Origin: Candidatus Nomurabacteria bacterium
GTDB taxonomy: Bacteria; Patescibacteriota; Patescibacteriia; Magasanikbacterales; UBA922
Assembly: GCA_020632445.1 (NCBI GenBank)
Contig: JACKFN010000001.1
Coordinates: forward strand, 75,975 to 139,974
DNA: 64,000 nucleotides
Direction: 5' to 3'
Shown: in pieces, positions 4,719 through 62,020 of the stretch
How the letters are laid out: each line of letters starts with the position of its first letter
Numbering within the stretch: the stretch's first letter is position 1
Program-made: the position numbers and the translations under genes
The notes under the pieces: model-generated
Databases searched by the model: none
The model's input: only the letters and a program-made list of their open reading frames with translations
Told to the model about the DNA's origin: nothing

Positions 4719-6494
4719 TCAGTTCAATTGTGAAAATTGTTCTAAAAGTGACTGCAACTTCTGATGGTCGCCTGCTTGCTCAGCCTGAGAAATTTCTTGC
4801 TGCAATTGAGCACGCCTTTGTTTGAGCCAGGTATTTTTGAGCTGCTCGCTAAGACTCCGTATTTCACTACTCGCTTGCGCTTTGCTCAAATGCCCAAAAT
4901 CCAACTCAGCCTTCATGAGTAGGATTTCTACTAAATCAAGTATGTCAGATTGCGGATACTGATGCCGAAATGCCTCGATATCTGCTTGTCCTGCATTATA
5001 CATGGACAGGAGCCTTTCGTAAAGAGGATAAGTAGCCAGCTGCGCCTCAAGTGAAACCAAGAACTCCACAGATCCAGCTTCGGGATACTTTAGGAGTAAG
5101 GCAAAAATGGCCTCCGAAAGCTCATCGGAGCGGGTTCTTTCGGGTCTACTTTCGAGATTTTCCGGTTTGGCCTGAGTTGTAGCTAAAGGTGTTTTGCGAG
5201 TAAGCCTCTTCATGTCTTCCTCCAAAACTTTTATATCTACTGCGAGGAGTGCAGAAAGCTGACTGACCCAATGCGATCTTTCAACCGCATACTGAATTTT
5301 CTGAATTTCAGGGAGAAGCTCATCTGCGGCAGCTTGTTTTTGCTTCGGATCAGAAAGGTTCTTGTCGGAAAACGCCATATCAAAATACCACTGCATAACA
5401 TCCTTGGCATTATCCACACATCTTTGCCAAAGTTCAGGATGCTTTTTTATGACTTCGTCTGGATCTTTTCCATAATCAGGATCAATCTGAATGATCTTGA
5501 CTGACATGCCTGCCTCAAGTGCAATCCCAATAGCTCGCTTGGCAGCAGAAACTCCAGCACTATCTGAATCAAACGAAAAAGCAATATTTTTACTATACCG
5601 TTTGATGAGGTGAATATGTCCCTCGGTAAGAGCTGTGCCGCTGGTTGCAACGACATTTTCGCTTCCATTTTGATGACAACTGATAACATCCGTCTGCCCC
5701 TCTACAAAAATCGCAAGATTTTTTTTCCGTATCGCCTGTTTGGCAAAATGGAGACCAAAAACAACCTGCGACTTGTCGAAAACCAATGTCTGTGGAGTGT
5801 TAATGTACTTCCCGCCAGAGTCCTCGGTTTCAACCAATATACGCGCCGTAAATCCCACGACATCTCCATGTACATTACGAATCGGAAAAATGATTCTCCC
5901 ACGAAACCTGTCATAAAACCCTTTCATTGATTGGCTGCTTGCTCCTTCGCGCTTTATGGTCAGTCCCGATGCAACAAGGTCATCAATGCTGTAGCCTTTT
6001 TTGAGAAGATATTTTGTAAGCAAATCCCACTGATCTACCACAAAGCCTATCTGCCACTTTTCTATGGTTTGATCACTCAATCCTCTTTTTGCCAAGTACT
6101 CACGAGCTGACTTGGCAGCATCAAGCTTGGTGAGAAAATTGTAATAAAAACGTGAAGCTTCAAGATTAATCTCTTTGATTCTATTTTTTTGACTTTTATG
6201 AATGTCCTGCTTGAAATCCGCAAGCTCAACACCTGCCTTTTGTGCAAGGAGCTTGAGTGCCTCAACAAATTCCAACCCCTCTATTTCCTCGACAAAGGTG
6301 AACGCGTCTCCCCCCTTATTACAACCAAAACAATGCCACCTCTGACGATCTCTATTTACCATAAAAGAAGGCGTCTTCTCTCCATGAAATGGACAAAGGC
6401 CTTTGTGGTTGATTCCTGCGGGTTTGAGTTCAATATACTCGCCTATCAGATCAACAATATCGATTTTCTGCTTTATCAGCTGTGTGTCGGACAT
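4719..6494 (-). CDS. dnaG: DNA primase DnaG
   Basis: Zinc ribbon [11 protein letters not shown]...CFGC. Toprim core EGQTDVIS...FDSDSAG. 591 aa, upstream of rpoD on the same strand. Confidence 0.9.
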
Positions 6495-8236: not shown

Positions 8237-9616
8237 TTATAACGGTGCTGGAAGCTCCTCCTGTGAATAAGACTCTCTGTCTTTTGAACCTGCTCGATCT
8301 TCTTGATCAGAAGAAGCAAACATTCTTTTGTTATTATCTATGATACGCTCTGCATTTTCACTATGGCTAAAAGCCTCAACTTGAAGCGATGTCGCACAAA
8401 ATGGACGCAAAGTTTGACCATCAGTGGACATCTTAATGTAGTACTCTCCAAGCCCTAGGTTAAGAAAGTCTGCTGGGGAAAGCTCCGGCTGAAACTCCAT
8501 AGCAATTCTCTGGGCATCTTCTCCACCGAGCCGAAACACGACCATGTTCCCAGTATTTCCAAGTACGGCGTCCATGAGTGTCTTTGGTATTTGACTCAGA
8601 TACTGGTTGGCAATCGTGATATTGATGGCATATTTACGTGATTCAGAAAACAAGGAGATAAAAGACTCCGTGGCAACATTTTGAAATTCATCTGCATAGA
8701 GATAAAACGATTTTCGCTTATCTGTTTCCTCGCTAGCTCTTGCTAGTGCACCTTGCTCAATCATGGTGAGAAAAAAAGATCCAAGCAGTGAAGCATTTTG
8801 TTCGCCGAGTACTCCCTTTGACATATTAATGAACAAAATTTTTCCTTTCGACAGAATATCGGGTATGTGAATCTTGTTTTCGCTTTGTGAAAATATTTCT
8901 CGCAGGAGTGGATCGGCAAAAAAGGCACCAAGTCTGTTTGCAAGCGGAGTTATTGCCTCCTGCTCATATTTCTGGCTAAATCCGGCAAATTCAACGGCAA
9001 AAAACCTTCTGGTCATTTCATCATTGATATTTTCTATAACCATCTGACGATACTTACTGTCAGTTATAATTTGTAAAATGCCGTACAGTGTACCCTGCTC
9101 GTATTCAAGCATTGCGAGCGTGGCAAAACGAAAAAGATGCTCCATGCGAGGCGACCAAGAACTCTGAAATTGTTTTCGAAACACTTCTATGAGGCTCTGA
9201 CACACATGCTGACGCATGTGCGCAGGTACGCTTGCAAATGGGTTAAAAGAAATGGTATAACTGGGCAAAGTGGGATCAATATACACGACATCGTTTACCC
9301 TCTCATTTGGGATGCATTGCATAAGTCCTTTCACCAAATCTCCGTGAGGGTCTACTACCGCCACTCCCTGACCACTCTCAATGTCGCTACGTATCAAATT
9401 CTCCATAAAACATGTCTTCCCCATTCCACTTTTTCCAAGAATATAGGCATGCCTATTTCTATCAGCCCGCTTGAGACCAAACAAATGTCTTGTCTCGTAC
9501 ATACCGCTGACATAAAGCGTCTTGCCAATTGGAGTAGAGTCAACTCCTGATCCGACCGTTCCAGACAGTTGCTCTGGTGGTGGCGGGAGCATAAAAGGAT
9601 ATCGGTCTGTGACCAT
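8237..9616 (-). CDS. TraD/VirD4/TrwB-like type IV coupling-protein family ATPase (paralog 2)
   Basis: Walker A GKSGMGKT and Walker B YADEFQNVA. Collinear with the ORF at 139..1881 through the ATPase core. Confidence 0.7.
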   Translation of the reverse strand: MVTDRYPFMLPPPPEQLSGTVGSGVDSTPIGKTLYVSGMYETRHLFGLKRADRNRHAYILGKSGMGKTCFMENLIRSDIESGQGVAVVDPHGDLVKGLMQCIPNERVNDVVYIDPTLPSYTISFNPFASVPAHMRQHVCQSLIEVFRKQFQSSWSPRMEHLFRFATLAMLEYEQGTLYGILQIITDSKYRQMVIENINDEMTRRFFAVEFAGFSQKYEQEAITPLANRLGAFFADPLLREIFSQSENKIHIPDILSKGKILFINMSKGVLGEQNASLLGSFFLTMIEQGALARASEETDKRKSFYLYADEFQNVATESFISLFSESRKYAINITIANQYLSQIPKTLMDAVLGNTGNMVVFRLGGEDAQRIAMEFQPELSPADFLNLGLGEYYIKMSTDGQTLRPFCATSLQVEAFSHSENAERIIDNNKRMFASSDQEDRAGSKDRESYSQEELPAPL

Positions 9617-36738: not shown

Positions 36739-37842
36739 TTACCACTGAGAACCTTTCTTCACCTTAAACTCGCCCTTTCCTTCAGAACGCCTCACCAGAT
36801 CCTCCATTCTAAACTGGCCCAAATATACTTCAACAGCCTCCATAGCCAACACCTGTACATCACCAAGCCCATTTTTTTCAAGCATAGCCTGCACGTCTTG
36901 CATGTGTTTTATTGGAACAATAATGGCTTTGATATCCTCAGGTTTCACAACATCCTCACCTCTAGCCTCATGCACGCCCAGAACCAGCATATCGCTATCT
37001 GCCGTCACATCTGTTTTATTGATGCATAATACCGCTCCCCAATTTCCTTCAATCTCTGACTTCATATCGAGCTGCGCATTAAATCCTTTCTGCTCACTTC
37101 CTTGCGCAGTAAATGATGTGAGCCATTTTTGAAAACGCTCACTCCTATCAAAACCTTCTGCATCACGCTTGCGCTTCATCTCCATCATTTGCTTCTTTTC
37201 TTTTTTTACTCGCCGAGCTGTGTCAAGTAAATTTCCAGCCTCACCAAACTCACGCTTGATAGAATCATACACAAAAAATGGAAAGTAATTGTTGGGATCA
37301 CCAAGTTGCCATTGTGGTTGATCACTCTCAGTCATGTATTTTGAAGCGTACCATTTAGAATAGAAGTAACTTTCAGTGAGTGATACAAAATCATCATCCC
37401 TTGTTGGGTGCCAAATATCTTTGTGAGGCTGCAAACCGTCATGTAGCACACTTTCAAGAATCTCCACGGGTTCATCTTGCTTATTCTCGTCAGGAATCTC
37501 TGTATCATCCTTTTTTTCGTACTTTTCTCCAGAATACTTCAGCCTCCCCGTACCATGAAAATAATAGTCATGCTTGAGCCCCTCCTCTGGAGTACCAAAA
37601 AAATCTACAAGCTTATCTCGCTGGAGCTCGAGCATTTTTTGAACCCCAGCTGAAGGGTAACCCTGCTCGCTCAAAAAACGGGCGACTTTTTGTTCAAGCC
37701 TGCCGGGTGTTCTCACTTCCCACATTCTGCGTTTAAATTTACGCATTTCTTCCTTGGGCGAAGGGTAGTGCCTTTCAATTTCGTCTATAGGTGGAATGGT
37801 TCTCCCCATTTCTAAAAAATTTCTCATATTTTGAAGTTTCAA
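36739..37842 (-). CDS. Hypothetical protein (367 aa), unknown function
   Basis: Intact ORF in tandem with the 36237..36725 ORF. No motif recognised. Confidence 0.45.
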   Translation of the reverse strand: MKLQNMRNFLEMGRTIPPIDEIERHYPSPKEEMRKFKRRMWEVRTPGRLEQKVARFLSEQGYPSAGVQKMLELQRDKLVDFFGTPEEGLKHDYYFHGTGRLKYSGEKYEKKDDTEIPDENKQDEPVEILESVLHDGLQPHKDIWHPTRDDDFVSLTESYFYSKWYASKYMTESDQPQWQLGDPNNYFPFFVYDSIKREFGEAGNLLDTARRVKKEKKQMMEMKRKRDAEGFDRSERFQKWLTSFTAQGSEQKGFNAQLDMKSEIEGNWGAVLCINKTDVTADSDMLVLGVHEARGEDVVKPEDIKAIIVPIKHMQDVQAMLEKNGLGDVQVLAMEAVEVYLGQFRMEDLVRRSEGKGEFKVKKGSQW

Positions 37843-38071: not shown

Positions 38072-38444
38072 TCGGCGGGTGGGATTTGAACCCACGACCA
38101 ATTGGTTACACGTTCTCCCCCATTTTCATAAGGGCGTGGACTATATCATCACCCGCGAATACCAGATCTTGCCTGGACGCTAGGGTGCAAGGCGCTTCGC
38201 CTCCCAAGGCATAAAGCCCTGAAAGACTACTCCCGTACAGTTTCTCGAACGAATCGAGATCAACATGGGATAGTCTCTGAACCTTTCCAGATTATCATTT
38301 ATTCGATTCTCTGGACTTGGCTGCTGATTACCCGTCAGATTTCTCTGGTGTGGGCTTCCAGCAATTCACCTTGTTTTGCACCTAAGAATTACTTCTTAGG
38401 GCTGCAATTTACAGCCAACTGCTCTACCACTGAGCTACCGCCGA
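38072..38444 (-). tRNA. tRNA (probably Asn, anticodon GUU) interrupted in the anticodon loop by a ~302-nt group-I-like intron
   Basis: 5' exon (38411-38444, minus strand): TCGGCGG-TA-GCTCAGTGGTAGAGC-A-GTTGG-CTGT. 3' exon (38072-38108): TAA-CCAAT-TGGTC-GTGGGTTCAAATCCCAC-CCGCCGA-G. The halves restore a complete cloverleaf with a 7-bp acceptor stem pairing across the gap. The intron (38109..38410) starts after a U that closes a P1-like helix (exon GGCUGU paired with downstream GCAGCC, ending in a U.G wobble). The intron ends in G. Confidence 0.6.
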
Positions 38445-38636: not shown

Positions 38637-39677
38637 TCACTCACTTTTGAGCGCCAATTGTCCACAAGCTGCATTGATGTCATCACCCATGGTTTTGCGC
38701 TGTGTCACATCAATATCATAGCCTCGAAGAATTTCCTTGAACCTCTCTACCCTCTCCTTTCCAGAACGTGTGTACTTCTTTCCGCTTACGGGATTGAGCG
38801 GGATAACATTTACCTTGGTAACAGCCGTCTTTTTTACATACTGGCCAAGTTCATGCGCAAGCTCCTCGGTATCATTTACTCCATCAATGAGTGTATATTC
38901 AAACGTAAGATGGTGCATACGATTTCCGAGCGTCGATTGGTACTCGTGTGACCACTGCGCTAGACGCTTTATAAACTCGGGCACGGTTGTTGGCACGATT
39001 TCTTCACGTTTCTTTTGATCCGCACTGTGAAGGGAAATCGCAATTCTCACTGGTGGCCAGTCTGGATCGGACAACAGTTTTTTGAGCTGAGGCAAAATTC
39101 CAACAGTTGAAACAACAATCTTCGTTGGTCCAATGTCCGTATAATCAAGCCATGTGTGAATTGCCTCTTTTACATTTTCATAGTTAGCCAGAGGCTCACC
39201 CATCCCCATAAATACCACGTTGGAAATTCTTTGTGGAAAATCAGGATGCTCTAGCAAAAATCCCTTCCAAAATCGATACTGATCAATAATCTCATCAGCC
39301 CCCATGCTTCTTTTGAGACCCATGGTTCCTGTCGCACAAAAATTACAACGCATGGCACACCCAATCTGTGAGGAAACACATATGGTCCACTGCCCTTTTG
39401 AATTTGCCATCAAAACAGTCTCAAAGTATTTCTTGTCTGCAGTCTCCAAGACGGCTTTAAACGTATCTTCATTTTTACTTTGATAGAGTGAATGTTTCTT
39501 CACACTCATCCAAGGGACATGCTCCTCAAGCTTGCTGCGCATATCCAGTGGCAAAGTTGACACCTCAGACCAAACCGCAATATTTGTATCAAAAGAAGCA
39601 CGATCAATCTGCTTGAGTCGAAACGATGGACTCCCATCAAAAAGTTCCTGTATTTGCGCCTTGCGACTTTTGTACAT
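38637..39677 (-). CDS. rlmN: Radical-SAM 23S rRNA/tRNA adenine-C2 methyltransferase RlmN (RlmN/Cfr family)
   Basis: CxxxCxxC cluster GCAMRCNFCATG, MGMGEPLANY and the second conserved Cys region. 346 aa. Confidence 0.85.
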   Translation of the reverse strand: MYKSRKAQIQELFDGSPSFRLKQIDRASFDTNIAVWSEVSTLPLDMRSKLEEHVPWMSVKKHSLYQSKNEDTFKAVLETADKKYFETVLMANSKGQWTICVSSQIGCAMRCNFCATGTMGLKRSMGADEIIDQYRFWKGFLLEHPDFPQRISNVVFMGMGEPLANYENVKEAIHTWLDYTDIGPTKIVVSTVGILPQLKKLLSDPDWPPVRIAISLHSADQKKREEIVPTTVPEFIKRLAQWSHEYQSTLGNRMHHLTFEYTLIDGVNDTEELAHELGQYVKKTAVTKVNVIPLNPVSGKKYTRSGKERVERFKEILRGYDIDVTQRKTMGDDINAACGQLALKSE

Positions 39678-51355: not shown

Positions 51356-51396
51356 TAGTATATCATATTGAGGTCAAAATCAAAGTATCTGTTATG

Positions 51397-51468
51397 ACCC
51401 TGTAGCTCAGCTGGTAGAGCAGCAGCCTTTTAAGCTGACGGTCCTGGGTTCGAGCCCCAGCGGGGTCA
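51397..51468 (+). tRNA. tRNA-Lys (anticodon UUU)
   Basis: GACCCTG-TA-GCTCAGCTGGTAGAGC-A-GCAGC-CTTTTAA-GCTGA-CGGTC-CTGGGTTCGAGCCCCAG-CGGGGTC-A. Confidence 0.85.
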
Positions 51469-51474
51469 CATAAT

Positions 51475-51505: not shown

Positions 51506-51545
51506 GTAGTTGAGTGCGCCCGTTGTCCACTGTCTCGAACACTGC

Positions 51546-51613
51546 AACAAAAAAATACCGCTTTCACAGTATTCCTCTTTTTCCAACTACTTCTACGTTG
51601 TAAAAATGATTGG
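51546..51613. repeat. repA copy 1 (conserved cassette 3' module; contains the terminator for minus-strand cargo)
   Basis: caacaaaaaaataccgctttcacagtattcctctttttccaactacttctacgttgtaaaaatgattgg. Near-identical copies at 52785..52853 and 54961..55030. On the minus strand it reads CCAATCATTTTTAC...GGAATACTGtgaaagCAGTATTTTTTT, a hairpin followed by a T-tract. Confidence 0.85.
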
Positions 51614-51641
51614 AGTAGTTTGGTGGGGGTGGGTTGTTGGT

Positions 51642-51962
51642 TCAGCGCGGCTTGTACGTCTCCCAGTTCGAGGCGATGAAGCCACTGAGACCGTGACGGT
51701 CGTCGATTCGGCCGTGTACCGCGAAGCGGTCTGCATCACCTGCGACTACACCGCTCGTCCCTTCAGGGACTTCGCAGCCCTCGAAGCTCCATGACCTAGG
51801 ACGGTCAACAGCACGCGCGACCTGCAGGATGTTGACCCTCACGGCTCCACGGTTGGTGTAGATCGTTATGGTCTCTTCCGCACGCATGGAGCGGATTAGA
51901 GCGTCAATGCCGACAGATCCATCACCCTCAATCTCAGCAGTGATGCTTTCTCCCACGATCAT
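51642..51962 (-). CDS. Cargo ORF 1: small GC-rich (~58%) protein of unknown function
   Basis: Composition clearly departs from the flanks. Start placed at MIVGESIT; a GTG three codons downstream has a GGAG RBS and is also possible. The upstream part of the longer track ORF is encoded by the conserved repB leader and is shared with cargo 2 in another frame. Confidence 0.55.
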   Translation of the reverse strand: MIVGESITAEIEGDGSVGIDALIRSMRAEETITIYTNRGAVRVNILQVARAVDRPRSWSFEGCEVPEGTSGVVAGDADRFAVHGRIDDRHGLSGFIASNWETYKPR

Positions 51963-51984
51963 CTCCACGAGCCGTTTGCATCTT

Positions 51985-52220
51985 TGTGGGCTGCTGGCGA
52001 ATGCCTGCAAACCATCCCACGTAGAACGAAATAACATATCACAAAAAAGACCTTTTGTCAAGGCCTTCTTTCTACTATTTACCTAATTTTAAACAAAAAC
52101 AGCTCTATTTTCCTCAAATATCCCTCCCATTTCCACTATCCCCCGCTCCAATGTGTTCCAGCATAAAACCCACTGGCTCACATAATCAGAAAAACCTCTA
52201 AAATTAGAGGTTTTTTGTTC
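51985..52220. repeat. repB copy 1 (~235 bp module). Read on the minus strand: terminator, ~150-nt conserved segment, TTGACA/TATGTT promoter, 47-nt conserved leader
   Basis: ~90% identical to 53548..53786. A partial third copy lies at 57589..57668. The minus strand carries the promoter cTTGACAaaaggtcttttttgtgaTATGTTat and the leader ttcgttctacgtgggatggtttgcaggcattcgccagcagcccacaa. Confidence 0.85.
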
Positions 52221-52231
52221 CGCCGATTTTC

Positions 52232-52735
52232 TTAGAGCTGCACAATCAGCTTATTTATGAGTGGGGAAAAATGATCCTTATAACGATCTTGCAATTCATT
52301 CATTTTCCAATCACTGCCTGTTACAAAACCGCGGCACGTAGCTTCCCCACAACAACGCTCCCAACTTGAATGATATTCAGGATCTGCTTGAAATAATTCA
52401 TAATCTACGGTCAGTTCTTCTCCTACACTTACGGCCCTTTTAGCTACCAATGTATAGGCATCACCCATCCACAGATTTGAGTCACATGAATGATTTACAA
52501 AATACCCAGTGTCTTTTCCTCTTTCCTCTATACTATACAAATCACTATCCCACTGCATGACAAGCAAGCCCTTTTTCTGAAATTCAATAGCACCTTTCTT
52601 GTTAGTATAGTTTCCACCCCAAATAATTACCTTTTCTCCCTCTTTTATATCTTCATGGGCAAATATTCCCTTTCCAGCAATGCCACTATCAAAAACTTTA
52701 ACTTTTGGGTTTTTCCAGTCTTGTTTTTTATCCAT
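52232..52735 (-). CDS. SET-domain protein (putative protein-lysine methyltransferase)
   Basis: SET hallmark FVNHSCDSN (NHSCxPN), ELTVDY (ELxxDY), and post-SET-like Cys cluster CCGEATC. Host-like AT-rich composition. Confidence 0.75.
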   Translation of the reverse strand: MDKKQDWKNPKVKVFDSGIAGKGIFAHEDIKEGEKVIIWGGNYTNKKGAIEFQKKGLLVMQWDSDLYSIEERGKDTGYFVNHSCDSNLWMGDAYTLVAKRAVSVGEELTVDYELFQADPEYHSSWERCCGEATCRGFVTGSDWKMNELQDRYKDHFSPLINKLIVQL

Positions 52736-52784
52736 AATATAAACTGCAACACTCTTAGTTTACCTTAGATAGGCAAAATTTCAA

Positions 52785-52853
52785 GCACAAAAAAATACTG
52801 CTTTCACAGTATTTCTTTTTTTCCAACTATTTCTACGAAGGTAAAAATGATTG
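52785..52853. repeat. repA copy 2
   Basis: aaaaaaatactgctttcacagtatttctttttttccaactatttctacgaaggtaaaaatgattggg. Upstream extension agtttaccttagataggcaaaatttcaagcac is also shared with copy 3. Confidence 0.85.
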
Positions 52854-52925
52854 GGAATTCTTGGGCGCCTGTGGGTGGTCGGCGCCCGTTGGGGGTGTGG
52901 TGGGATGCGCAGCTTCAGCGCGAGG

Positions 52926-53519
52926 TCACTTGACGGTCGCGTGCGTCCGCCAGAACTCCACGCTGCGCGCGTAGGCGTCGCGGTCGAGGGGCTGGCCGCT
53001 GCCGCCCTCCTCGCGACCGAGCGCGTTGCGCATCATGGTGATGGGGGGCATGGGCGACTCGGCCGCCTGGAGCTCCGCGTTGACGCTCACGATGCCCCAG
53101 TTGGCGTCGGGCACGTCGGGCTCGCCCTCGGGGAACTTCTTGGCCTCCGCCTCCAGCGCCTCGCGCGTGTAGAGGACCAGGTCCAGGTGCGTGGCCCGCG
53201 GCGCCTCGACGCCCTCGAGCCAGCGGACCATCACGGGGAGCTCGCCCTCGCGGCGCGCGACGTAGTCGGTGCGCAGCGCGTGGCGGTTCTCGTCCGTGAT
53301 GGGCGCGATGCCCGCGAGGGTGTCCGACTCGTTCACCAGGAAGAGGTGCTTGCAGAACGGGGCGTACCCGTCGACCAGCTCCGCCCCCGCGGCGAGCGCC
53401 TCGTTGGCCAGCTCCACGAGCTGCTCGGGCGTCAAGCCCACGACTCGGGTGCCCGCGAACTCGGGATCGAAGTGGCGGCCCTGGGCGAATCGGGTGATGT
53501 CGATCTCTCGGCTGCTCAT
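52926..53519 (-). CDS. Cargo ORF 2: GC-rich (~68-70%) protein of unknown function (197 aa)
   Basis: Start MSSREIDITRF, preceded by GGAGAAG RBS, just downstream of the conserved repB promoter and leader. Codon usage and GC unlike the host genes. No motif recognised. Confidence 0.6.
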   Translation of the reverse strand: MSSREIDITRFAQGRHFDPEFAGTRVVGLTPEQLVELANEALAAGAELVDGYAPFCKHLFLVNESDTLAGIAPITDENRHALRTDYVARREGELPVMVRWLEGVEAPRATHLDLVLYTREALEAEAKKFPEGEPDVPDANWGIVSVNAELQAAESPMPPITMMRNALGREEGGSGQPLDRDAYARSVEFWRTHATVK

Positions 53520-53547
53520 CGGTTCTTCTCCGAATGAGGTGATGTCC

Positions 53548-53786
53548 TTGTGGGCCGCTGGCGAATGCCTGCAAACCATCCCACGTAGAACGAAGTAATA
53601 TAACACAAAAAAAGCCTCTTGTCAAGGCCTTCTTTCTACTATTTACCTAATTTTAAACAAAAAATGCCATGTTTTTCCTCAAATATCCCTCCCATATACA
53701 CTATCCCACGCTCCACAGTGTTCCAGCATAAACCCCATTGGCTCACATAGTCAGAAAAACCTCTAAATTTAGAGGTTTTTTGTTGT
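53548..53786. repeat. repB copy 2
   Basis: See repB copy 1. Minus-strand promoter cTTGACAagaggctttttttgtgtTATATTact. Confidence 0.85.
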
Positions 53787-53823
53787 TCTTTTTTTGTTAT
53801 TGGTACCTAAGCTGGAACACTTA

Positions 53824-54912
53824 CTACCTCTTATCCATTCTTGGAATTTCTCTTTCTTTCCTCATTTCCGAAAGCCTTTCACTTTCACGAAGTAACTCCC
53901 CTTTTGTTTCACCACGTAAGTTGGAATCTGCCAACATACGCATTTCATCTTTATCGCTGGAACGAGACAGCACGTAATTCGCCTTGATCATAATTTGCTG
54001 AAAGTCAGGCACACATCGCAGCCTTAACCACTCAGAGTTCGGTGGTTCTGTCATCTGATCGGCAAAGAAAACAATAGTATTGGGCGCATATTCTTGTATC
54101 CACTGCACCACCTTACTTTCTGAATTCAGCGGCTGCTCATGTGGTAAATCAAACAAAACTATGGCATCCACAATATCCGCTGCAGCCTTTAATTTGGCTT
54201 GTATAGAATCACTCATTTCAGAACAAACTCCAATAGGCAATATGTCTTTCTCCACGAGAGGATTAAATTCTACCTCCATTCCTTCAGTTTCCTCATAAAG
54301 CTTATCTTCTTCAACAGATATCTCACCTCTATACAATGTAGCAATTGGCTGTTCAGTTACACCATCCATTGCATCAACATCTGAAGCTGAAAACTTTCTT
54401 GTATGCACTGCTCGAAAAAGCTTTCCTGCAAAACAAACAGTTACTTCATTAATAGAAGGAATTTCGTTTCCTGACTGTGCTGCAACTTCAATAGCATCCA
54501 AAAGATTTCGTGGGCCATCTGATTCCTCTTCGACAGCTGGTATCATACTCCCTGTAAAGACTACAGGCCCTTTCAAACCTTGCAATTCATAACTCAATGC
54601 TCCCGCTGAAGGTCCCATGGTATCTGTACCAAAGACAACCACAATTCCGTCATAATTTTGCTGTTCCTTTGATATCCGATCACCCAAAAGTTGATAAAGC
54701 TCAATGTTTGCATCTGATGAATCAATAAACTTGTCGTTCAACTTAAACTCTGACCAATCTACCCGATATAGCAACTCTTCTAGACCTGGTATGTTCTGTT
54801 GTAGCATCTCCATGGATCCAGGCTTTAGACCACCCTTCAGATTCGTAGGCACCATACCAATGGTTCCACCTGTATATAGTACAAGAATCTTTCTTTCGCT
54901 TGCTTGTTTCAT
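53824..54912 (-). CDS. L-asparaginase family protein (type I / GatD-like) with basic C-terminal tail
   Basis: N-terminal ILVLYTGGTIGM motif, GIVVVFGTDTM second motif. 362 aa. Host-like composition. Confidence 0.75.
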   Translation of the reverse strand: MKQASERKILVLYTGGTIGMVPTNLKGGLKPGSMEMLQQNIPGLEELLYRVDWSEFKLNDKFIDSSDANIELYQLLGDRISKEQQNYDGIVVVFGTDTMGPSAGALSYELQGLKGPVVFTGSMIPAVEEESDGPRNLLDAIEVAAQSGNEIPSINEVTVCFAGKLFRAVHTRKFSASDVDAMDGVTEQPIATLYRGEISVEEDKLYEETEGMEVEFNPLVEKDILPIGVCSEMSDSIQAKLKAAADIVDAIVLFDLPHEQPLNSESKVVQWIQEYAPNTIVFFADQMTEPPNSEWLRLRCVPDFQQIMIKANYVLSRSSDKDEMRMLADSNLRGETKGELLRESERLSEMRKEREIPRMDKR

Positions 54913-54960
54913 AGTTTTTAGTCACTATATCCAGTTTACCCTACACAGCTAAAATATCAA

Positions 54961-55030
54961 GTGACAAAAAAATACTGCTTTCACAGTATTTCTTTTTTTC
55001 CAATTATTTCTACATTGTAAAAATGATTAG
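54961..55030. repeat. repA copy 3 (upstream extension from 54933)
   Basis: gtgacaaaaaaatactgctttcacagtatttctttttttccaattatttctacattgtaaaaatgattag. Confidence 0.85.
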
Positions 55031-55075
55031 GAACTTGTCGAGGCTGGGTGGATCAGCCCCTGACGTTGGTAGGTT

Positions 55076-55807
55076 TTAGGTGGGTGGGTTCAGCATGGCA
55101 AGGGCGTTCTTGGCGGCATCCTTGCGAGCTTCTTTTCTGGAGAGCCCAGTTCCGATGGCGTAGAAGGTGCTCCCAACGTAGACCGCTTCCGTATAGGTGC
55201 GCTCATGGTCAGGACCTTCTTCAGAAACAAGGCTGTAGGTAGGAGTTGGCTTCCCAAGCCCCTGAATTTGCTCCTGAAAGATACTCACGAAGTCAGTGTA
55301 ACTACGGTCGAAGATCCTCTGCAGGCGCGGAAGGATCATCTCAAGTACGAACGACTGGGCTGCCATCAGTCCACGATCCTGATAGATGGCACCAACCACT
55401 GCCTCAAGAACATCAGCGAACAACTTGGTCGTCCGCTCTAGATTTCGTACGTCCTTACGTTGCCCGCGAGACATTCGCACGTAGTTGATGATACCCAGCT
55501 CCACGGTCACCTCAGAGAGTGCCCTACCACACACAAGGCCCGAACGAAGCTTGGTAAGTTCACCCTCCGTCTTGTCACTATGGTTTCGAACGAGAAAATC
55601 CGTAACCACGAGCTCAATGACCGCGTCACCAAGAAATTCAAGAAGCTCGTAGTGTCCAAGCTCCCTTGCCGCCCTGTGCTCGTTGACGTAGGAGCGGTGA
55701 GTGAGCGCCTTCAGGAGAAGCTTCCTGTCGTGGAACTCGATGCCAAGGAGTTTACGAAGCTGCGAGAAGTAGTCTTCAGCTCGCATCTTCGTCCACCTCA
55801 TCATCAC
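55076..55807 (-). CDS. rnc: Ribonuclease III (in GC-elevated cargo block 3)
   Basis: RNase III signature HRSYVNEH...ELLEFLGDAV, catalytic DVLEAVVGAIY, C-terminal dsRBD (LSRKEARKDAAKNALAML). ~55-57% GC against a ~40% background. Confidence 0.8.
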   Translation of the reverse strand: MMMRWTKMRAEDYFSQLRKLLGIEFHDRKLLLKALTHRSYVNEHRAARELGHYELLEFLGDAVIELVVTDFLVRNHSDKTEGELTKLRSGLVCGRALSEVTVELGIINYVRMSRGQRKDVRNLERTTKLFADVLEAVVGAIYQDRGLMAAQSFVLEMILPRLQRIFDRSYTDFVSIFQEQIQGLGKPTPTYSLVSEEGPDHERTYTEAVYVGSTFYAIGTGLSRKEARKDAAKNALAMLNPPT

Positions 55808-57380
55808 TCAGATCGGGTCGATTGACCTGCTCCCATCGGACGTTGAGGTCGCACCGAATTTCGAAGAGGTCCTTCTTGAACTCTTCGTCCTCCCGAGCGA
55901 GCTCGAGAGCCTCGGACTTCGCACGCTTGAACCACGCCACGCTCCTACGGCACTCCCGCGCCAGGATCGGGTACTGGGGATCCCAATGACCACCAGTGTA
56001 GCCGAGGGACAACAGTACGTATGCAAGCATCGCTCTAGATACGACAGCTGAAACCCTGCGCCCCTCCATCTCGTTGGTACTGACTCCGTAGTAGAGACAG
56101 ACTTCTTCCATGATGAGGCGTGCTGACAGGGCCCTCCTGTGATCGATGGGCCTACGAGGCTTCTCGGGAAGCACCTGGACAGAAGATGCCCCCACCTTAC
56201 GCGGCTTGGCCTTCGGAGTCGGAACATCAGCGATGAACCCACCGATTTCCGCTTCGTCGTCCATGTCATCTGGCCCCTCTGTCTCTTCAGCGAACAGAGA
56301 TTCCAAAAGACCCGAGCTACGAAGCTTCTTAATGGCGGCAGCCTCACGTTGGCGAATTCTCTCACTTGTCACGCCGAAGGTGCTACCAATCTCCGTGAGG
56401 GTCCTTTGGCCCTTACCATCGAGGCCAAAACGCATCATGATAACTCGCCGTTCTACCTCAATGAGCCCCACCTCGTCGAATAGCTTCCTGATGGCTAAAC
56501 GCGCGAAGACACGATCCTCGAGACTGCTCTTGTCAACATCCCAAGGGGAACCAACTTGTGGCTGAAGACCACCTTCGCCTTCTGCGTCGAGTGACAGGGC
56601 ATCTTCGACACGGGGGCCATCCTCACCGCTTTTATCCCTACCGAACGCATTGTGGATCTCAAGAACTCGAGAACGCTGCCACCTAACTGCAGAGAGAACG
56701 TTTGCCAGCTCATTTCCCTTTGGATCCCAACCCAACATCACTGCCACCTCTTCGCCCGTAGGCCAGACACCGTGCTCCTTCCTGAATACACGTTGAGCGT
56801 TCACGAACTGAAAGAGGGAGGACCAGAGGTGAACGGGAACCCGAACGAGCCCAGAGTTGTAGACGGCACGAGTTACCTTCTGACGAATCCAGTGGTAGGC
56901 GTAGGTGCTGAACTGGTGCCCCTTGTCAGGATCGAACTTTCGAGCTGCAGTGAGCATCCCGATAGCTCCCTCTTGGGCGAAGTCTTCCAGGTCGTATGCA
57001 GGATCGAACTCAGGGTTCTCCACCAGATACCTGCACCTCCTGGTGACGAAACGCCACACGAGCCGCATATTCTCCTCAAAAACCCCCTCGAGGGCTTCGG
57101 CGTCACCACCGAGGTAATGCACCACATCGTTCGTGAGCCTGGTGCCTCCACTGATACCACCGCCACTATACCGCTTCTCTGGAATCGTATCACCCTTCAG
57201 AACGAGCCCGTACTCAGCGAGCTTCTTACGGACGAACCCCAGACGCCGCCTGGTGATTCCATTCCGCTTCGCACCGTCGAGAGTCTCGTTGGCCAGATCC
57301 CCCAGCGTGTGATACCCCATCTGCTTGAAGTCCTGGACCTGCTTCGGCCTGAACCCTGCGTCGGCAAGGCTCAGCTTCAT
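55776..57380 (-). CDS. Sigma-70-family-like multidomain DNA-binding protein (cargo block 3) with extra N- and C-terminal HTH-like domains
   Basis: Region 2-like STYAYHWIRQKVTRAVYNSGLVRVPVHLW. Region 4-like LTEIGSTFGVTSERIRQREAAAIKKLR. N-terminus resembles an RNAP alpha-CTD HhH (LADAGFRPKQVQDFKQMGYHTLGDL...GITRRRLGFVRKKLAEYGL). C-terminus resembles DnaA domain IV (EVCLYYGVSTNEMEGRRVSAVVSRAMLAYVLLSLGYTGG). Start chosen at MKLSLAD. The terminal-domain identities are weak. Confidence 0.55.
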   Translation of the reverse strand: MKLSLADAGFRPKQVQDFKQMGYHTLGDLANETLDGAKRNGITRRRLGFVRKKLAEYGLVLKGDTIPEKRYSGGGISGGTRLTNDVVHYLGGDAEALEGVFEENMRLVWRFVTRRCRYLVENPEFDPAYDLEDFAQEGAIGMLTAARKFDPDKGHQFSTYAYHWIRQKVTRAVYNSGLVRVPVHLWSSLFQFVNAQRVFRKEHGVWPTGEEVAVMLGWDPKGNELANVLSAVRWQRSRVLEIHNAFGRDKSGEDGPRVEDALSLDAEGEGGLQPQVGSPWDVDKSSLEDRVFARLAIRKLFDEVGLIEVERRVIMMRFGLDGKGQRTLTEIGSTFGVTSERIRQREAAAIKKLRSSGLLESLFAEETEGPDDMDDEAEIGGFIADVPTPKAKPRKVGASSVQVLPEKPRRPIDHRRALSARLIMEEVCLYYGVSTNEMEGRRVSAVVSRAMLAYVLLSLGYTGGHWDPQYPILARECRRSVAWFKRAKSEALELAREDEEFKKDLFEIRCDLNVRWEQVNRPDLSDDEVDEDAS

Positions 57381-57588
57381 CGCTGTTTGCTTATCTCGCA
57401 CTCTCTTGACCTTTCATCCTTAGTATCCACTGAGTTGAAGACAACGAAAAGTGCTACATTTCAAAGAACTCCACATTCATGAGTGGTAATTCACCATAGC
57501 TTAAAGTTATGAAAAAGTCAATATTTTTCTTCTAATCTAAGTGCAAAAAACGCTTAATTTACTGGTAACCACTACAAAATTACATAAT

Positions 57589-57668
57589 CCTTGCTCCAAA
57601 GTGTTCCAGCATAGACTCCACTGGCTCACAGTTTTAAAAACTCCCTATTTTAGAAACATTTTTTTCTT
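57589..57668. repeat. repB partial copy 3 (only the terminator and the first ~60 nt of the conserved segment)
   Basis: ccttgctccaaagtgttccagcatagactccactggctcacagttttaaaaactccctattttagaaacattttttt aligns to the right-hand end of repB copies 1 and 2. Confidence 0.7.
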
Positions 57669-57735
57669 AATTCTTGACTCACAATAATTATCACGTTACA
57701 TTTATATACAGCGTCAGAATATTTCACATTTTTAT

Positions 57736-58194
57736 ATGAATAAGGCTTCATGCCTGGTTTGCTCTCGTATAGAAAGCATTCATAGTAATAAAAATCCCTA
57801 TTACGTTACGGAGCTTCCATCAGGATATGTAGTACTTGGTGACCATCAGTTATTTAAGGGATATTCACTTTTGCTTCTGAAAAATCATGTCCAAGAGCTT
57901 CATGAACTCATTGACAACGACCGAAGACAGTTTCTCGAAGATATGAGCCTACTTGGAAAAGCAATCAATAATGCTTTTTCCCCCGAAAAAATAAACTACG
58001 AACTTCTAGGAAACTCAGCAAATCACTTACACTGGCATATTTTTCCAAGACATAAGAATGATCCTCGGCCACAAGGACCTGTTTGGGCAATAGACAAAGC
58101 GATAAGATATAGCGAAGAATATATTCCCAAGACAAAAACACTTCAAGATCTAAAAAATGCTCTTCTTTCTGAAATAAACAAGCTTAAAAGCTGA
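57736..58194 (+). CDS. HIT (histidine triad) family hydrolase
   Basis: Histidine triad HLHWHIFPR (HxHxHxx). ~150 aa. Confidence 0.8.
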   Translation: MNKASCLVCSRIESIHSNKNPYYVTELPSGYVVLGDHQLFKGYSLLLLKNHVQELHELIDNDRRQFLEDMSLLGKAINNAFSPEKINYELLGNSANHLHWHIFPRHKNDPRPQGPVWAIDKAIRYSEEYIPKTKTLQDLKNALLSEINKLKS

Positions 58195-60840: not shown

Positions 60841-60892
60841 AAAAAAACCCGTTTGAGCTTCCTTGCCGTGCAAAGAAACTCAAACGGGTTCC
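60841..60892 (-). terminator. Rho-independent terminator downstream of GC-rich island 4
   Basis: Minus strand: AACCCGTTTGAGtttctttgcacggcaaggaagCTCAAACGGGTTTTTTT. Confidence 0.65.
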
Positions 60893-61082
60893 GGAAGCGG
60901 TGAGGCTCCCGGCTTTGGTGGCGCACTCGGTCGCCCCCTCAGGTGGGTGTTGCTTGGACACGGAGTCCTGCATCACTCACAACCCTCCTCGACGCCGATC
61001 CTGGCTCACGGTGGCAGGTGAACCTACCGGTCCATGGATACCAGGATGGCGATCGAGGTTCGCGCCGACGAAGCGGACGCGA

Positions 61083-61487
61083 TCAGCGGGTCGCCGCGGT
61101 CGCCTCGATCAGGCACTGGGCCACGTAGGCCGCGTAGGTGCCGTTGTCGACGTGGTAGCCCGGCCCGGCGAACTTCGCCGTGATGGCGTTGGGGCCGGCC
61201 ATGGCCGCGTCCACCAACACCTTGTGGGCCCCGTTGATGGAACCGCCGGCGATCTTGCCGATGACCGAACCCTTGCTGAGGCCCGTCTGCCCCGCGATCA
61301 TGTTGGCGGTCTGGTCGAGCGTGACCGCGGCCGCCGTCGTCACCGCGGTGATCGCCGCCGCGTTGCGGTCGAAGTTCTCGTCGGGGACGTCGAGCGTGAT
61401 CACCACCTGGGTGGTGAACTTCACCCCCACGTTCGGGTTCTCGGTGGCCTGCTGCAGGTACTGCGTGAACTTGTCCATGGTCTTCAT
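61083..61487 (-). CDS. GC-rich (~62%) small protein of unknown function (island 4) with a long structured 5' leader
   Basis: Start MKTMDKFTQ, preceded by GGGGGA RBS. Ala/Thr/Gly-rich. Composition foreign to the flanking murG and membrane-protein genes. Confidence 0.55.
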   Translation of the reverse strand: MKTMDKFTQYLQQATENPNVGVKFTTQVVITLDVPDENFDRNAAAITAVTTAAAVTLDQTANMIAGQTGLSKGSVIGKIAGGSINGAHKVLVDAAMAGPNAITAKFAGPGYHVDNGTYAAYVAQCLIEATAATR

Positions 61488-61675
61488 GTGTCCCCCTCTG
61501 AGGGTGTTCCAGCCTCCGAAAGCCGGATTCGTAAGTTCCTCCCGACCAAGGAGGGTGCGCTGCTGCCCGAAGGCTGCATCGGAATACGCACTAAAGCTTT
61601 GTATCTGTCTACCCGTAGGCACACAGATACAAAGCTTCTCTAGGGTTGTGTGTAAATTGTAAAAAGCAATGCCAC

Positions 61676-61704: not shown

Positions 61705-62020
61705 ACCTCTCTGTCCACACGGACTCAAAAAAATCGCTCCATTGCCATAACTTGACAAGCTCATCTTTTCATGTTACGGTAATTATAGAGAGTTAATTCT
61801 TAACAGACTCTATGACAGATCTGAAAACTCTTGCTTCTGGTTCATACGGCTACAGGCAGAGATAGGCAGCCAGATTGTTCCGGCACGCCTGTAGTCGGTG
61901 TTACTGGATTCACATTTCCTTTGTATTGACGTACAATAAAACCCTGACCAAACATCAGGGTTTTGTTTTTTTAATTTCCCTATACCACTTTCTTTTCACT
62001 CTTTTATTCTTCTCTTACTT

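What the first reader, a model, noticed from the sequence alone, without database searches (positions are those of the whole stretch)
55076..57401. Cargo block 3: RNase III plus an unusual sigma-70-like protein with alpha-CTD-like and DnaA-domain-IV-like ends
The largest GC-shifted insertion carries two genes.
- A canonical rnc (ELLEFLGDAV, dsRBD).
- A 535-aa protein with sigma region 2/3-like and region 4 HTH segments, flanked by extra N- and C-terminal HTH-like domains (alpha-CTD-like and DnaA-domain-IV-like; weak).

Its 5' region replaces the conserved repB promoter/leader with a different TTGACT-17-TATGGT promoter.

A foreign sigma-like regulator and a dsRNA nuclease delivered as cargo could be phage- or plasmid-derived regulatory or defence genes. 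The three-domain fusion does not match any standard sigma architecture.
Basis: partly seen in the sequence, partly recalled or inferred. Interest (0 to 1): 0.55.

Follow-up and report, generated by a model that had tools for sequence, protein, structure and literature searches.

The report
Foreign three-domain sigma factor plus RNase III
A small bacterium of the candidate phyla radiation has picked up a two-gene unit: an ordinary double-stranded-RNA nuclease and a one-of-a-kind RNA polymerase sigma factor that seems to carry two extra DNA-binding domains. It is an unusual variant of a known protein kind, seen so far only in this organism.

Summary
Window 55076-57401 (- strand) is a GC-shifted block: GC3 is 0.62-0.64, against 0.29-0.41 in host genes. 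It has its own TTGACT-17-TATGGT promoter and two overlapping genes.

- **rnc:** a textbook RNase III. It scores 217 bits on TIGR02191 (cutoff 166), with intact catalytic residues and a dsRBD.
- **Sigma core:** the 534/541-aa protein has a real but very diverged sigma-70 core. Regions 2 and 4 are significant and region 3 is weak. It is 34-39% identical to RpoDs.
- **N-terminus:** it is alpha-CTD-like. hhalign gives 93% probability with score 37.8, against a maximum of 14.7 in 200 shuffles. phmmer hits the B. subtilis alpha-CTD in PDB at E=0.025. Pfam itself reports nothing.
- **C-terminus:** it is weakly DnaA-domain-IV-like by four converging sub-threshold tests.
- **Rarity:** an exhaustive search of 1.84 billion proteins finds no relative of the C-terminal domain.

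The host is a Magasanikbacteria-like CPR bacterium. It has its own dnaG-rpoD in the window. The closest genome lacks this block at the syntenic site. The block sits in a tRNA-Lys-linked array of promoter/terminator-flanked foreign cassettes.

The most likely reading is an acquired alternative sigma plus RNA-processing operon. It is a new variant of a known kind. No defence or phage link was found.

The parts
57493..57521 (-). Cargo-specific sigma-70-type promoter-like site, TTGACT-17-TATGGT. It stands where cargos 1 and 2 have the shared repB promoter and leader.
   Evidence: Promoter scan gives 9/12 matches. The flank alignment shows divergence from cargos 1 and 2 here.
55776..57401 (-). Sigma-70-family gene, 541 aa from the GTG at 57401 and 534 aa from the ATG at 57380. 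It is an orphan three-part architecture.
   Evidence: ORF list; Pfam; PDB phmmer to SigA and RpoS structures at E down to 4e-29; the only close database match is itself.
57189..57371 (-). N-terminal alpha-CTD-like (helix-hairpin-helix) domain, residues about 11-71 of the 541-aa numbering.
   Evidence: phmmer against PDB hits B. subtilis RNAP alpha-CTD 1z3e_B, 3ihq_B and 3gfk_B at E=0.025-0.035 across the whole domain. hhalign gives 93% probability and score 37.8, against a maximum of 14.7 in 200 shuffles. Pfam PF03118 is not reported.
56307..57113 (-). Sigma core, residues about 97-365. It has a degenerate region 1.2, then regions 2.1-2.4, 3.0 and 4.1-4.2. There is a 13-aa insertion in region 2 and a long acidic, disordered region 3.2 linker.
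   Evidence: Pfam r2 and r4. The alignment with host RpoD, E. coli sigma70 and Saccharibacteria RpoD shows 34-39% identity, against 58-60% among true RpoDs. Invariant columns are listed. AF2 pLDDT is 75-96 in regions 2 and 4.
56127..56306 (-). Acidic, proline- and lysine-rich linker predicted to be disordered (residues about 366-425).
   Evidence: AF2 pLDDT is below 50 for model residues 363-421. No family hit.
55848..56126 (-). C-terminal helical domain with weak DnaA-domain-IV-like (HTH) similarity, residues about 426-518. It is an orphan by sequence.
   Evidence: Pfam Bac_DnaA_C E=0.065. hhalign covers 87 columns at 25-59% probability, score 24.7-29.3 against a shuffle maximum of 19.5. The top three Foldseek PDB hits are DnaA domain IV (1j1v_A, 3pvp_B, 3pvp_A) at E=0.16-0.54. 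BFVD top hits are phage 'DnaA C-terminal' proteins. Exhaustive phmmer finds no relative.
55076..55807 (-). rnc, a class-1 RNase III with a dsRBD. It overlaps the sigma stop codon. The probable start is the ATG at 55786.
   Evidence: Pfam. TIGR02191 scores 217.5 bits, above the 166.25 cutoff. The ELLEFLGD and DVLEAVVG catalytic motifs are read directly from the translation. The nearest relatives are CPR housekeeping rnc genes.
54964..55028 (-). repA, the shared 3' flank of all three cargo blocks. It holds an AT-rich hairpin and an intrinsic terminator (ATACTGTGAAAGCAGTAT followed by T7).
   Evidence: Three copies in the window, at 51547, 52787 and 54964. Two more copies lie in the related MAG.
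57553..57680 (+). Degenerate copy of the tRNA-Lys 3' part plus its terminator. It bounds the cargo block on its promoter side.
   Evidence: It aligns colinearly with tRNA-Lys 51396-51469 plus terminator and with four other such copies. The 30-nt core occurs three times, against 0 expected.

Best explanation
A horizontally acquired, self-contained two-gene operon sits in a variable, tRNA-Lys-linked cassette region of a Magasanikbacteria-like CPR chromosome.

**Gene 1: an alternative sigma-70-family factor.**
- Its core (regions 2, 3.0 and 4) keeps the residues that are invariant in the 46 aligned sigma-core homologues (RpoD-type, best hits). It should therefore still dock on core RNA polymerase and read -10 and -35-type elements.
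- Changes at W433H, R584S and E458S (E. coli numbering) suggest altered specificity.
- Region 1.1 is replaced by an alpha-CTD-like helix-hairpin-helix domain.
- A roughly 100-residue DnaA-domain-IV-like helix-turn-helix domain hangs from region 4 on a disordered acidic linker.
- My inference is that the two add-on domains give the holoenzyme extra DNA contacts. One would read an UP-element-like site and the other a more distant operator-like site. The factor could then pick out a small private promoter set without separate activators.

**Gene 2: a catalytically intact RNase III.** It is translationally coupled to gene 1. It would process or degrade double-stranded or structured RNA made when this sigma is active.

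**What is shown.** Foreign composition, gene integrity, domain identities (strong for the sigma core and RNase III, moderate for alpha-CTD-like, weak for DnaA-IV-like), own promoter and terminator, and absence from the sister genome.

**What is inferred.** Core-polymerase binding, DNA binding by the extra domains, the target promoters and the RNase III substrates.
For: **Composition and location.**
- GC3 is 0.62-0.64 against 0.29-0.41 in host genes.
- The block is absent from the syntenic site of MAG PCWN01000007.1.
- Independent Logan contigs span both junctions.

**Sigma core.**
- Pfam r2 and r4 are significant.
- PDB SigA and RpoS hits reach E=4e-29.
- 69 columns are invariant across 47 sequences including this one: NMRLV, QEG, KFDPDKG, FSTYA, WIRQ, PVH, RFG and ERIRQ.

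**N-terminal domain.** It resembles alpha-CTD. Basic residues sit at the positions aligned to E. coli alpha R265 and K298. This is read from the alignment using residue roles recalled from memory.

**C-terminal domain.** Four weak but concordant tests point to DnaA domain IV.

**RNase III.** It scores above the equivalog cutoff.

**Operon features.** There is a promoter, a repA terminator and overlapping stop and start codons.

**An extra sigma, not a replacement.** The host has its own dnaG-rpoD in the window.
Against: - There is no functional or expression evidence.
- The protein is a singleton, found only in this organism. No conservation supports function or purifying selection.
- Pfam does not report the alpha-CTD family at all. 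The DnaA_C hit is well below threshold.
- The DnaA DNA-contact motif (RDHTTV) is not conserved; the aligned stretch here reads CRRSVAW.
- AF2 models of both terminal domains have low confidence: pLDDT is 32-87 for the N-terminus and 45-73 for the C-terminus.
- No candidate regulon accompanies the operon.
Confidence: 0.55

Rival explanations
1. A stranded remnant of a mobile element, such as a CPR phage, plasmid or island. The sigma once drove the element's own promoters and the RNase III processed its transcripts. The rest of the element has been lost, so the pair is now functionless or decaying cargo.
For: - The sigma core is far more diverged than any RpoD, at 34-39% against 58-60%. Conserved positions are altered and region 3.2 is long and disordered.
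- The protein is an orphan.
- No other element genes, integrase or target genes lie nearby.
- BFVD matches show that stand-alone DnaA-C-like proteins are common in phages.
Against: - Both ORFs are long and intact, and the catalytic and core-binding residues are preserved.
- The block has its own good promoter and terminator.
- No phage relatives were found in INPHARED or IMG/VR beyond generic sigma cores.
- PHROGs gives only generic sigma and RNase III families.
Confidence: 0.2
2. The terminal extensions are regulatory rather than DNA-binding. The C-terminal domain on its flexible acidic linker would fold back on regions 2 and 4 as an in-cis anti-sigma-like module, as in ECF sigma factors with C-terminal extensions. 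The N-terminal domain would substitute for the autoinhibitory region 1.1.
For: - C-terminal extensions that regulate sigma activity are documented for several ECF groups (PMC7826278, found).
- The linker is acidic, like region 1.1. This is read directly from the sequence.
- The DnaA DNA-contact residues are not conserved in the alignment.
- The domain-family similarities are sub-threshold.
Against: - The core is group-1/2-like, not ECF.
- The N-terminal domain aligns over the full alpha-CTD with basic residues at DNA-contact positions.
- The top fold and profile matches for the C-terminus are all DNA-binding DnaA domains.
Confidence: 0.15
3. An anti-phage defence or abortive-infection module. 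The sigma-like protein would sense infection and the RNase III would act as effector. Alternatively it could be a fragment of an MZA-type system.
For: - MzaA is the best NCBIfam and PADLOC model for the sigma protein.
- The block lies in a variable island beside other foreign genes.
Against: - The MzaA score is 137 bits against a cutoff of 800, and the match covers only the sigma core.
- The host housekeeping RpoD scores 328 bits on the same model.
- No MzaB-E or any other PADLOC family hits rnc or the neighbouring cargos.
- The rnc is of the housekeeping type.
Confidence: 0.05
4. An assembly chimera or contaminating DNA from a higher-GC organism, joined to the CPR contig at repeats.
For: - The composition jumps sharply exactly at repeated flanks.
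- Logan contigs end at those repeats.
Against: - One Logan contig (L001) runs continuously through host HIT gene, promoter, sigma, rnc and repA. A second contig from another run agrees at 100%.
- The same flank architecture, with a GC-rich cargo-1 homologue, exists in an independently assembled MAG from another project.
- The flanks supply a promoter and a terminator in the correct orientation.
Confidence: 0.03

Closest known systems
Group 1/2 sigma-70 factors (SigA/RpoD, RpoS)
   Same: Regions 2.1-2.4, 3.0 and 4.1-4.2 align continuously with solved SigA and RpoS structures at E down to 4e-29. The core-binding and -10/-35 recognition motifs are largely retained.
   Different: - There is no region 1.1, and region 1.2 is degenerate.
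- Identity to RpoDs is only 34-39%.
- All RpoD and RpoS equivalog models score far below cutoff, for example 119 bits against 555.
- Region 2 has an insertion and region 3.2 is expanded and disordered.
- It carries N- and C-terminal extra domains, seen in none of the 120 best hits.
RNA polymerase alpha-subunit C-terminal domain (alpha-CTD, Pfam PF03118)
   Same: The N-terminal 60 residues align over the entire alpha-CTD helix-hairpin-helix domain. The score is far above shuffled and cross controls.
   Different: - Here it is fused to the N-terminus of a sigma factor rather than tethered to the alpha N-terminal domain.
- Pfam does not report the family, and pairwise BLAST finds nothing.
- I know of no described sigma with such a domain, and a literature search found none.
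DnaA domain IV / stand-alone phage DnaA-C-terminal HTH proteins (Pfam PF08299)
   Same: - It is the top sub-threshold Pfam hit.
- hhalign aligns about 87 columns, covering nearly the whole domain.
- It gives the top Foldseek hits in PDB and in the viral library.
- The helix order is the same.
   Different: - Every score is below significance.
- The DnaA-box contact motif is not conserved.
- No AAA+ module is present.
- An exhaustive sequence search retrieves no DnaA at E<=0.001.
GafA, the activator of the Rhodobacter gene transfer agent
   Same: It is a described precedent for one polypeptide combining a DnaA-like DNA-binding domain with a sigma-factor-like DNA-binding domain that acts on RNA polymerase (PMC9638019).
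   Different: - GafA has the DnaA-like domain at its N-terminus and only a region-4-like segment.
- It works through the omega subunit and is not a full sigma.
- No sequence relationship to this protein was tested or seen.
Bacterial class-1 RNase III (rnc)
   Same: Full-length match above the equivalog cutoff, with the catalytic signature and a single dsRBD. It is 44-48% identical to CPR housekeeping rnc genes.
   Different: - Its genomic context differs. The closest relatives sit in an L32, NusB-NUDIX, rnc, SMC neighbourhood.
- This copy is coupled to a sigma gene inside a foreign cassette.
tRNA-linked genomic islands and integron-like cassette arrays
   Same: - The region lies next to tRNA-Lys.
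- It is punctuated by degenerate copies of the tRNA 3' end plus terminator.
- It holds serial, compositionally foreign single-gene units with shared flanks.
   Different: - No integrase or IntI was found among the window ORFs I scanned with Pfam: about 55 ORFs, including all the main non-overlapping ones of at least 120 aa.
- The flanks are a promoter-leader and a terminator rather than attC sites.
- Host-composition genes are interleaved with the cargos.

Membership tests
Sigma-70 family | Region 2 (core binding, -10 recognition) | tested here: met
   Pfam Sigma70_r2 at 2.1e-14 and 53.5 bits, above the cutoff of 24. QEG, KFDPDKG, FSTYA and WIRQ are invariant with the 46 aligned homologues.
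Sigma-70 family | Region 4 (-35 recognition HTH) | tested here: met
   Pfam Sigma70_r4 at 6.6e-12 and 45.2 bits, above the cutoff of 24.1. The ERIRQ motif is retained.
Sigma-70 family | Region 3 | tested here: inconclusive
   Pfam Sigma70_r3 scores 13.4-15.6 bits against a cutoff of 25.3. However, PDB alignments run continuously through region 3.0, and the PVH motif is retained.
Sigma-70 family | Binds core RNA polymerase and directs promoter-specific initiation | not testable with these tools
   This needs biochemistry.
Primary (group 1) sigma RpoD/SigA | Regions 1.1 and 1.2 present, and a full-length match to RpoD equivalog models | tested here: not met
   There are no PF03979 or PF00140 hits. 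RpoD models score 116-128 bits against cutoffs of 354-572. The host RpoD at 3286-4707 scores 444-458 bits on the full-length RpoD models, itself below their 555-572 cutoffs.
ECF (group 4) sigma | Only regions 2 and 4, about 170-220 aa, with best matches to ECF groups | tested here: not met
   The best matches are all group 1/2 sigmas and include region 3.0. The TIGR02937 hit is to a superfamily model that the host RpoD also hits.
MzaA (sigma-like protein of the MZA defence system) | Full-length match above the curated cutoff, and neighbouring mzaB-E genes | tested here: not met
   It scores 137 bits against a cutoff of 800, and only over the sigma core. The host RpoD scores 328 bits on the same model. 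No other PADLOC hits lie nearby.
RNA polymerase alpha-CTD (PF03118) | Profile match to the family | tested here: inconclusive
   Pfam reports nothing at E<=10. phmmer against PDB hits B. subtilis alpha-CTD at E=0.025. The fold-level likeness is supported, but family membership is not established.
DnaA domain IV (PF08299 Bac_DnaA_C) | Profile match above the gathering score | tested here: not met
   13.7 bits against a cutoff of 31.5, at E=0.065.
DnaA domain IV (PF08299 Bac_DnaA_C) | Same fold and helix order (remote similarity) | tested here: inconclusive
   hhalign scores 24.7-29.3, above all 200 shuffles. The Foldseek top three in PDB and 6 of the top 10 in BFVD are DnaA C-terminal domains, but with E>=0.13 and on a model of pLDDT 52.
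DnaA domain IV (PF08299 Bac_DnaA_C) | Conserved DnaA-box contact residues (basic loop R399, and the DHTTV helix) | tested here: not met
   The stretch aligned to RDHTTV reads CRRSVAW. The residue roles come from general knowledge of 1J1V.
Class-1 RNase III | Signature ExLEFLGD, second acidic pair DxxE, one dsRBD, and an equivalog score | tested here: met
   ELLEFLGD and DVLEAVVG appear in the translation. dsrm scores 1.1e-13. TIGR02191 scores 217.5 bits, above 166.25.
tRNA-linked integrative island | Adjacent tRNA gene and direct repeats derived from its 3' end | tested here: met
   tRNA-Lys lies at 51396-51469. Three degenerate copies of the tRNA-Lys 3' part plus terminator are in the window and two in the MAG.
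tRNA-linked integrative island | Integrase or recombinase gene | tested here: not met
   No integrase, recombinase or transposase family was found among the roughly 55 window ORFs I scanned with Pfam, which include all the main non-overlapping ORFs of at least 120 aa. One could lie outside the window.

The most novel reading that the evidence does not exclude
The protein would be the first example of a 'self-sufficient' sigma factor. It would carry its own UP-element reader (an alpha-CTD-like domain) and an extra DnaA-type operator reader. It would be shipped together with RNase III as a portable transcription-plus-RNA-processing module.

The vehicle would be a previously undescribed gene-capture system of CPR bacteria. 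In it, foreign genes are dropped between a standard promoter-leader and a standard terminator, and each unit is bounded by a degenerate copy of the tRNA-Lys 3' end.
Probability: 0.12. Interest if true: 0.8.

Novelty: new variant of a known kind. Interest (0 to 1): 0.5.

Why it matters
- **Sigma architecture.** Sigma factors are normally helped to promoters by separate parts of RNA polymerase (alpha-CTD) or by separate activators. A sigma with such DNA-reading modules built in would be a new way to specify promoters. It would also be a compact part for synthetic biology.
- **CPR biology.** CPR bacteria have tiny genomes and few regulators. An acquired extra sigma plus RNase III shows how they may gain regulatory capacity.
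- **Gene acquisition.** The surrounding cassette array hints at an organised route for taking up and expressing foreign genes in these episymbionts.
- **Caveat.** All of this rests on one sequence from one organism and on weak similarity for the C-terminal domain.

Tried and rejected
- **N-terminal homologue search.** The word-indexed search found no candidates.
- **C-terminal homologue search.** The exhaustive HMMER search of 1.84 billion representatives found only the protein itself and one repetitive false match. No alignment could therefore be built to improve the structure models.
- **BLASTP and tblastn.** Comparing the terminal domains with E. coli and B. subtilis alpha-CTD and DnaA-IV gave nothing. 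The similarity is visible only at profile level.
- **PDB phmmer of the C-terminus.** It gave only spurious capsid hits at E about 2.
- **Phage and virus searches.** Phage tblastn, IMG/VR, PHROGs and PADLOC returned generic sigma and RNase III matches only. I rejected a phage or defence origin as unsupported.
- **Repeat searches in collections.** The repA motif has no hits in viral contigs. The genome and metagenome scans returned a single related genome, recorded twice.
- **RNA structure.** I looked for an RNase III autoregulatory hairpin in the 5' UTR of the operon and in the shared leader of cargos 1 and 2. Folding energies are no better than shuffles, with z-scores of -0.3 to +0.7.
- **Second rnc or sigma in the window.** Only the host rpoD was found.
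- **Literature.** Searches found no described sigma with an alpha-CTD-like or DnaA-like domain, and nothing on the source samples.


Full report
**1. What is in the sequence**

Window 55076-57401 holds two overlapping ORFs on the - strand.
- The first is a 541-aa ORF at 55776-57401, or 534 aa from the ATG at 57380.
- The second is a 243-aa ORF at 55076-55807. An independent gene call starts it at the ATG at 55786, giving 236 aa.

The block is 52-60% GC, and its flanks are 32-41% GC. GC3 is 0.64 and 0.62, against 0.29-0.41 for eight neighbouring host-type genes.

A TTGACT-17-TATGGT promoter-like site lies at 57521-57493. Downstream of rnc is a 65-nt element (54964-55028) containing an intrinsic terminator. 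That element recurs at 51547 and 52787.

Two Logan contigs from runs SRR12358675 and SRR12358676 match window 54964-58168 and 55211-57651 at 100% identity. They link the block to the host HIT gene in an independent assembly.

**2. The host**

- A 30-nt motif from the upstream flank hits one species in 185,579 genomes. It is a Candidatus Magasanikbacteria MAG, PCWN01000007.1. The metagenome scan returned the same genome again.
- That genome is syntenic with window 46-55 kb at 66-87% identity.
- The window itself carries a canonical dnaG-rpoD pair at 4719-6494 and 3286-4707, and also murG and ftsW. It is therefore chromosomal DNA of a CPR bacterium with its own primary sigma.
- The cargo sigma core is only 29.5% (tblastn) to 34% identical to that host RpoD.

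**3. RNase III**

The 243-aa protein is an ordinary class-1 RNase III.
- Pfam gives Ribonucleas_3_3 at 4e-32 and dsrm at 1e-13.
- NCBIfam TIGR02191 scores 217.5 bits against a cutoff of 166.25.
- The ELLEFLGD and DVLEAVVG acidic motifs are intact.
- Its nearest named relatives are rnc genes of other CPR lineages (Moranbacteria, Uhrbacteria, Kaiserbacteria, Paceibacterota) at 44-48% identity.
- In two of the closest relatives, rnc sits in a housekeeping neighbourhood. NusB-NUDIX lies just upstream in both, and the longer contig also shows L32 and SMC. No sigma gene is present.

**4. The sigma core**

- Pfam regions 2 and 4 are significant. Region 3 is sub-threshold.
- phmmer against PDB aligns residues about 97-365 with solved SigA, RpoD and RpoS chains at E down to 4e-29.
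- In an alignment with 46 sigma-core homologues from the first search (RpoD-type, Saccharibacteria among those named), 69 columns are invariant including this protein. These cover regions 2.1-2.4, 3.0 and 4.1-4.2.
- The core is nevertheless an outlier. It is 34-39% identical to host, Saccharibacteria and E. coli RpoD. Those three are 58-60% identical to each other.
- It lacks region 1.1 and has only a trace of region 1.2.
- It has a 13-residue insertion in region 2.
- In place of the sigma finger it has an expanded acidic linker that AF2 predicts to be disordered.
- Reading with E. coli numbering from general knowledge, W433 is H, E458 is S and R584 is S.
- All RpoD and RpoS equivalog models score far below cutoff.
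- It is therefore a sigma-70-family protein. It is not a primary sigma and not an ECF sigma.

**5. The N-terminal domain**

- Pfam reports nothing, even at E<=10. BLASTP against E. coli alpha-CTD finds nothing useful.
- phmmer against all PDB sequences returns B. subtilis alpha-CTD (1z3e_B, 3ihq_B, 3gfk_B) at E=0.025-0.035. The alignment covers residues 12-64 and nearly the whole 73-residue domain.
hhalign against that alignment gives 93% probability over 61 columns.
- In my local rerun the score is 37.8. The maximum over 200 shuffles is 14.7. The reversed sequence scores 10.2, and this alpha-CTD alignment run against the C-terminal domain scores 9.7.
- The similarity starts upstream of the start codon chosen by the automatic Logan gene call. 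This favours the longer ORF.
- I regard an alpha-CTD-like helix-hairpin-helix fold as moderately well supported. Family membership is not established.

**6. The C-terminal domain**

- An exhaustive phmmer of residues 400-532 against 1.84 billion representatives finds only the protein itself. The domain is an orphan by sequence.
- Four weak tests point the same way.
  - Bac_DnaA_C is the top Pfam hit, at E=0.065.
Probability is 25-59%, and the score of 24.7-29.3 is above all 200 shuffles (maximum 19.5).
  - Foldseek of a low-confidence AF2 model (pLDDT 52) against 350,542 PDB chains ranks DnaA domain IV first, second and third: 1j1v_A, 3pvp_B and 3pvp_A at E=0.16-0.54.
  - The same model against viral structures puts 'DnaA C-terminal' phage proteins at six of the top ten places.
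- No single result is significant, and the DnaA-box contact motif is not conserved. The call is 'probably a diverged DnaA-IV-type HTH', at about two in three.

**7. Context**

The block is the third of three GC-rich units on the - strand next to tRNA-Lys (51396-51469).
- Each unit has the same 3' element.
- Units 1 and 2 share a roughly 250-nt 5' element with a near-consensus promoter and a leader.
- Unit 3 keeps only the distal part of that element.
- That distal part aligns colinearly with the 3' part of tRNA-Lys plus its terminator.
- The MAG has the unit-1 homologue and another small GC-rich gene between the same flanks.
- In the MAG the SET and asparaginase genes are 28 nt apart. There is no unit 2 between them, and different genes lie where unit 3 sits in the window.
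- No integrase was found among the roughly 55 window ORFs I scanned with Pfam, which include all the main non-overlapping ORFs of at least 120 aa.

**8. Interpretation**

- The simplest reading is an acquired operon encoding an alternative sigma with two accessory DNA-binding modules, together with RNase III.
- The donor was probably another CPR lineage or one of its mobile elements with about 55% GC. This is an inference.
- I infer that the extra domains add promoter-proximal and distal DNA contacts. I infer that RNase III handles the resulting transcripts. Neither inference is shown.
- A described precedent for combining a DnaA-like and a sigma-like DNA-binding domain in a polymerase-directed activator is GafA (PMC9638019).
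- Alternatives are a stranded mobile-element remnant, regulatory rather than DNA-binding extensions (compare ECF C-terminal extensions, PMC7826278), a defence module, or a chimera.
  - The defence reading has no support.
  - The chimera reading is contradicted.

**9. Verdict**

- The phage, plasmid or defence gloss is not supported.
- The RNase III is ordinary.
- The sigma is a real singleton with an architecture that I could not find described.
- I file it as a new variant of a known kind and score its interest at 0.5. The limits are that it is one sequence, has no functional data and has weak evidence for the C-terminal domain.

Noticed in passing
window 51540-57680; MAG loci L003 7235-7355 and L004 1745-2900: The window holds an array of three self-contained 'expression cassettes' next to tRNA-Lys. 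Each has four parts in order: a terminator plus a degenerate copy of the tRNA-Lys 3' end; a promoter and leader; a GC-rich foreign gene; and a hairpin plus terminator. Host-composition genes (SET, asparaginase) are interleaved. Cargo 1 is an unknown 104-aa protein, and cargo 2 is DUF3228 at 72% GC with GC3 of 0.97. The related MAG has the same flanks around partly different cargo. This may be an organised gene-capture site. No integrase was found in the window.
   Followed up: partly
window 52736-53823 versus L003 6684-6714: Cargo unit 2 with all its flanks is an insertion, relative to the MAG, into the 28-nt spacer between the asparaginase and SET genes. A possible 12-14-nt direct repeat, TAAG(A)GTGTT(C/G)CAG, sits at both junctions. 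It could be a target-site duplication or chance.
   Followed up: partly
window 51993-52024 and 53557-53588; L004 1957-1990: The shared 5' leader of cargos 1 and 2 contains a small hairpin, GCAGGC-AUUC-GCCAGC. The MAG copy carries a compensatory G-C to A-U change. Overall folding energy is unexceptional.
   Followed up: partly
window 60890-61640: A fourth GC-rich block reaches up to 70% GC. Its gene is at 61083-61487 on the - strand, encodes 134 aa and has GC3 of 0.98. It matches no family in Pfam, NCBIfam, PADLOC or PHROGs. Its flanks differ from the other three blocks, including a 20-bp perfect-ish hairpin at 61594-61637.
   Followed up: partly
window 38117-38422 (- strand): A group I intron (Rfam RF00028, 94.9 bits, full-length model) lies between a radical-SAM ORF (38637-39677) and an unannotated 367-aa ORF (36739-37842). 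No rRNA was detected in the window, so its host gene is unclear.
   Followed up: no
L003 3667-3975 and L004 2520-2810: The related MAG encodes two paralogous small GC-rich proteins of about 96-102 aa. One lies inside the tRNA-Lys cassette array. The other lies 6 kb away with its own, different promoter and terminator.
   Followed up: no
window 61780-61975: An intergenic stretch of about 190 nt upstream of murG ends in a clear terminator hairpin, AAACCCTGACCAAACATCAGGGTTTTGTTTTTTT. It has no ORF and no Rfam hit at gathering threshold. It may be a small RNA.
   Followed up: no
window 139-1881 and 8237-9616 (- strand): Two TrwB/TraG-type coupling-protein-like ATPases flank the dnaG-rpoD region. 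They may be relevant to DNA uptake or transfer in this CPR bacterium.
   Followed up: no
sigma protein residues 11-24 (window about 57330-57371): The motif SLADAGFRPKQVQD resembles the repeated unit of PDB 5i8l_A, which is labelled lysozyme. The summed E is 0.0019, but each repeat alone is not significant. This is probably chance.
   Followed up: no
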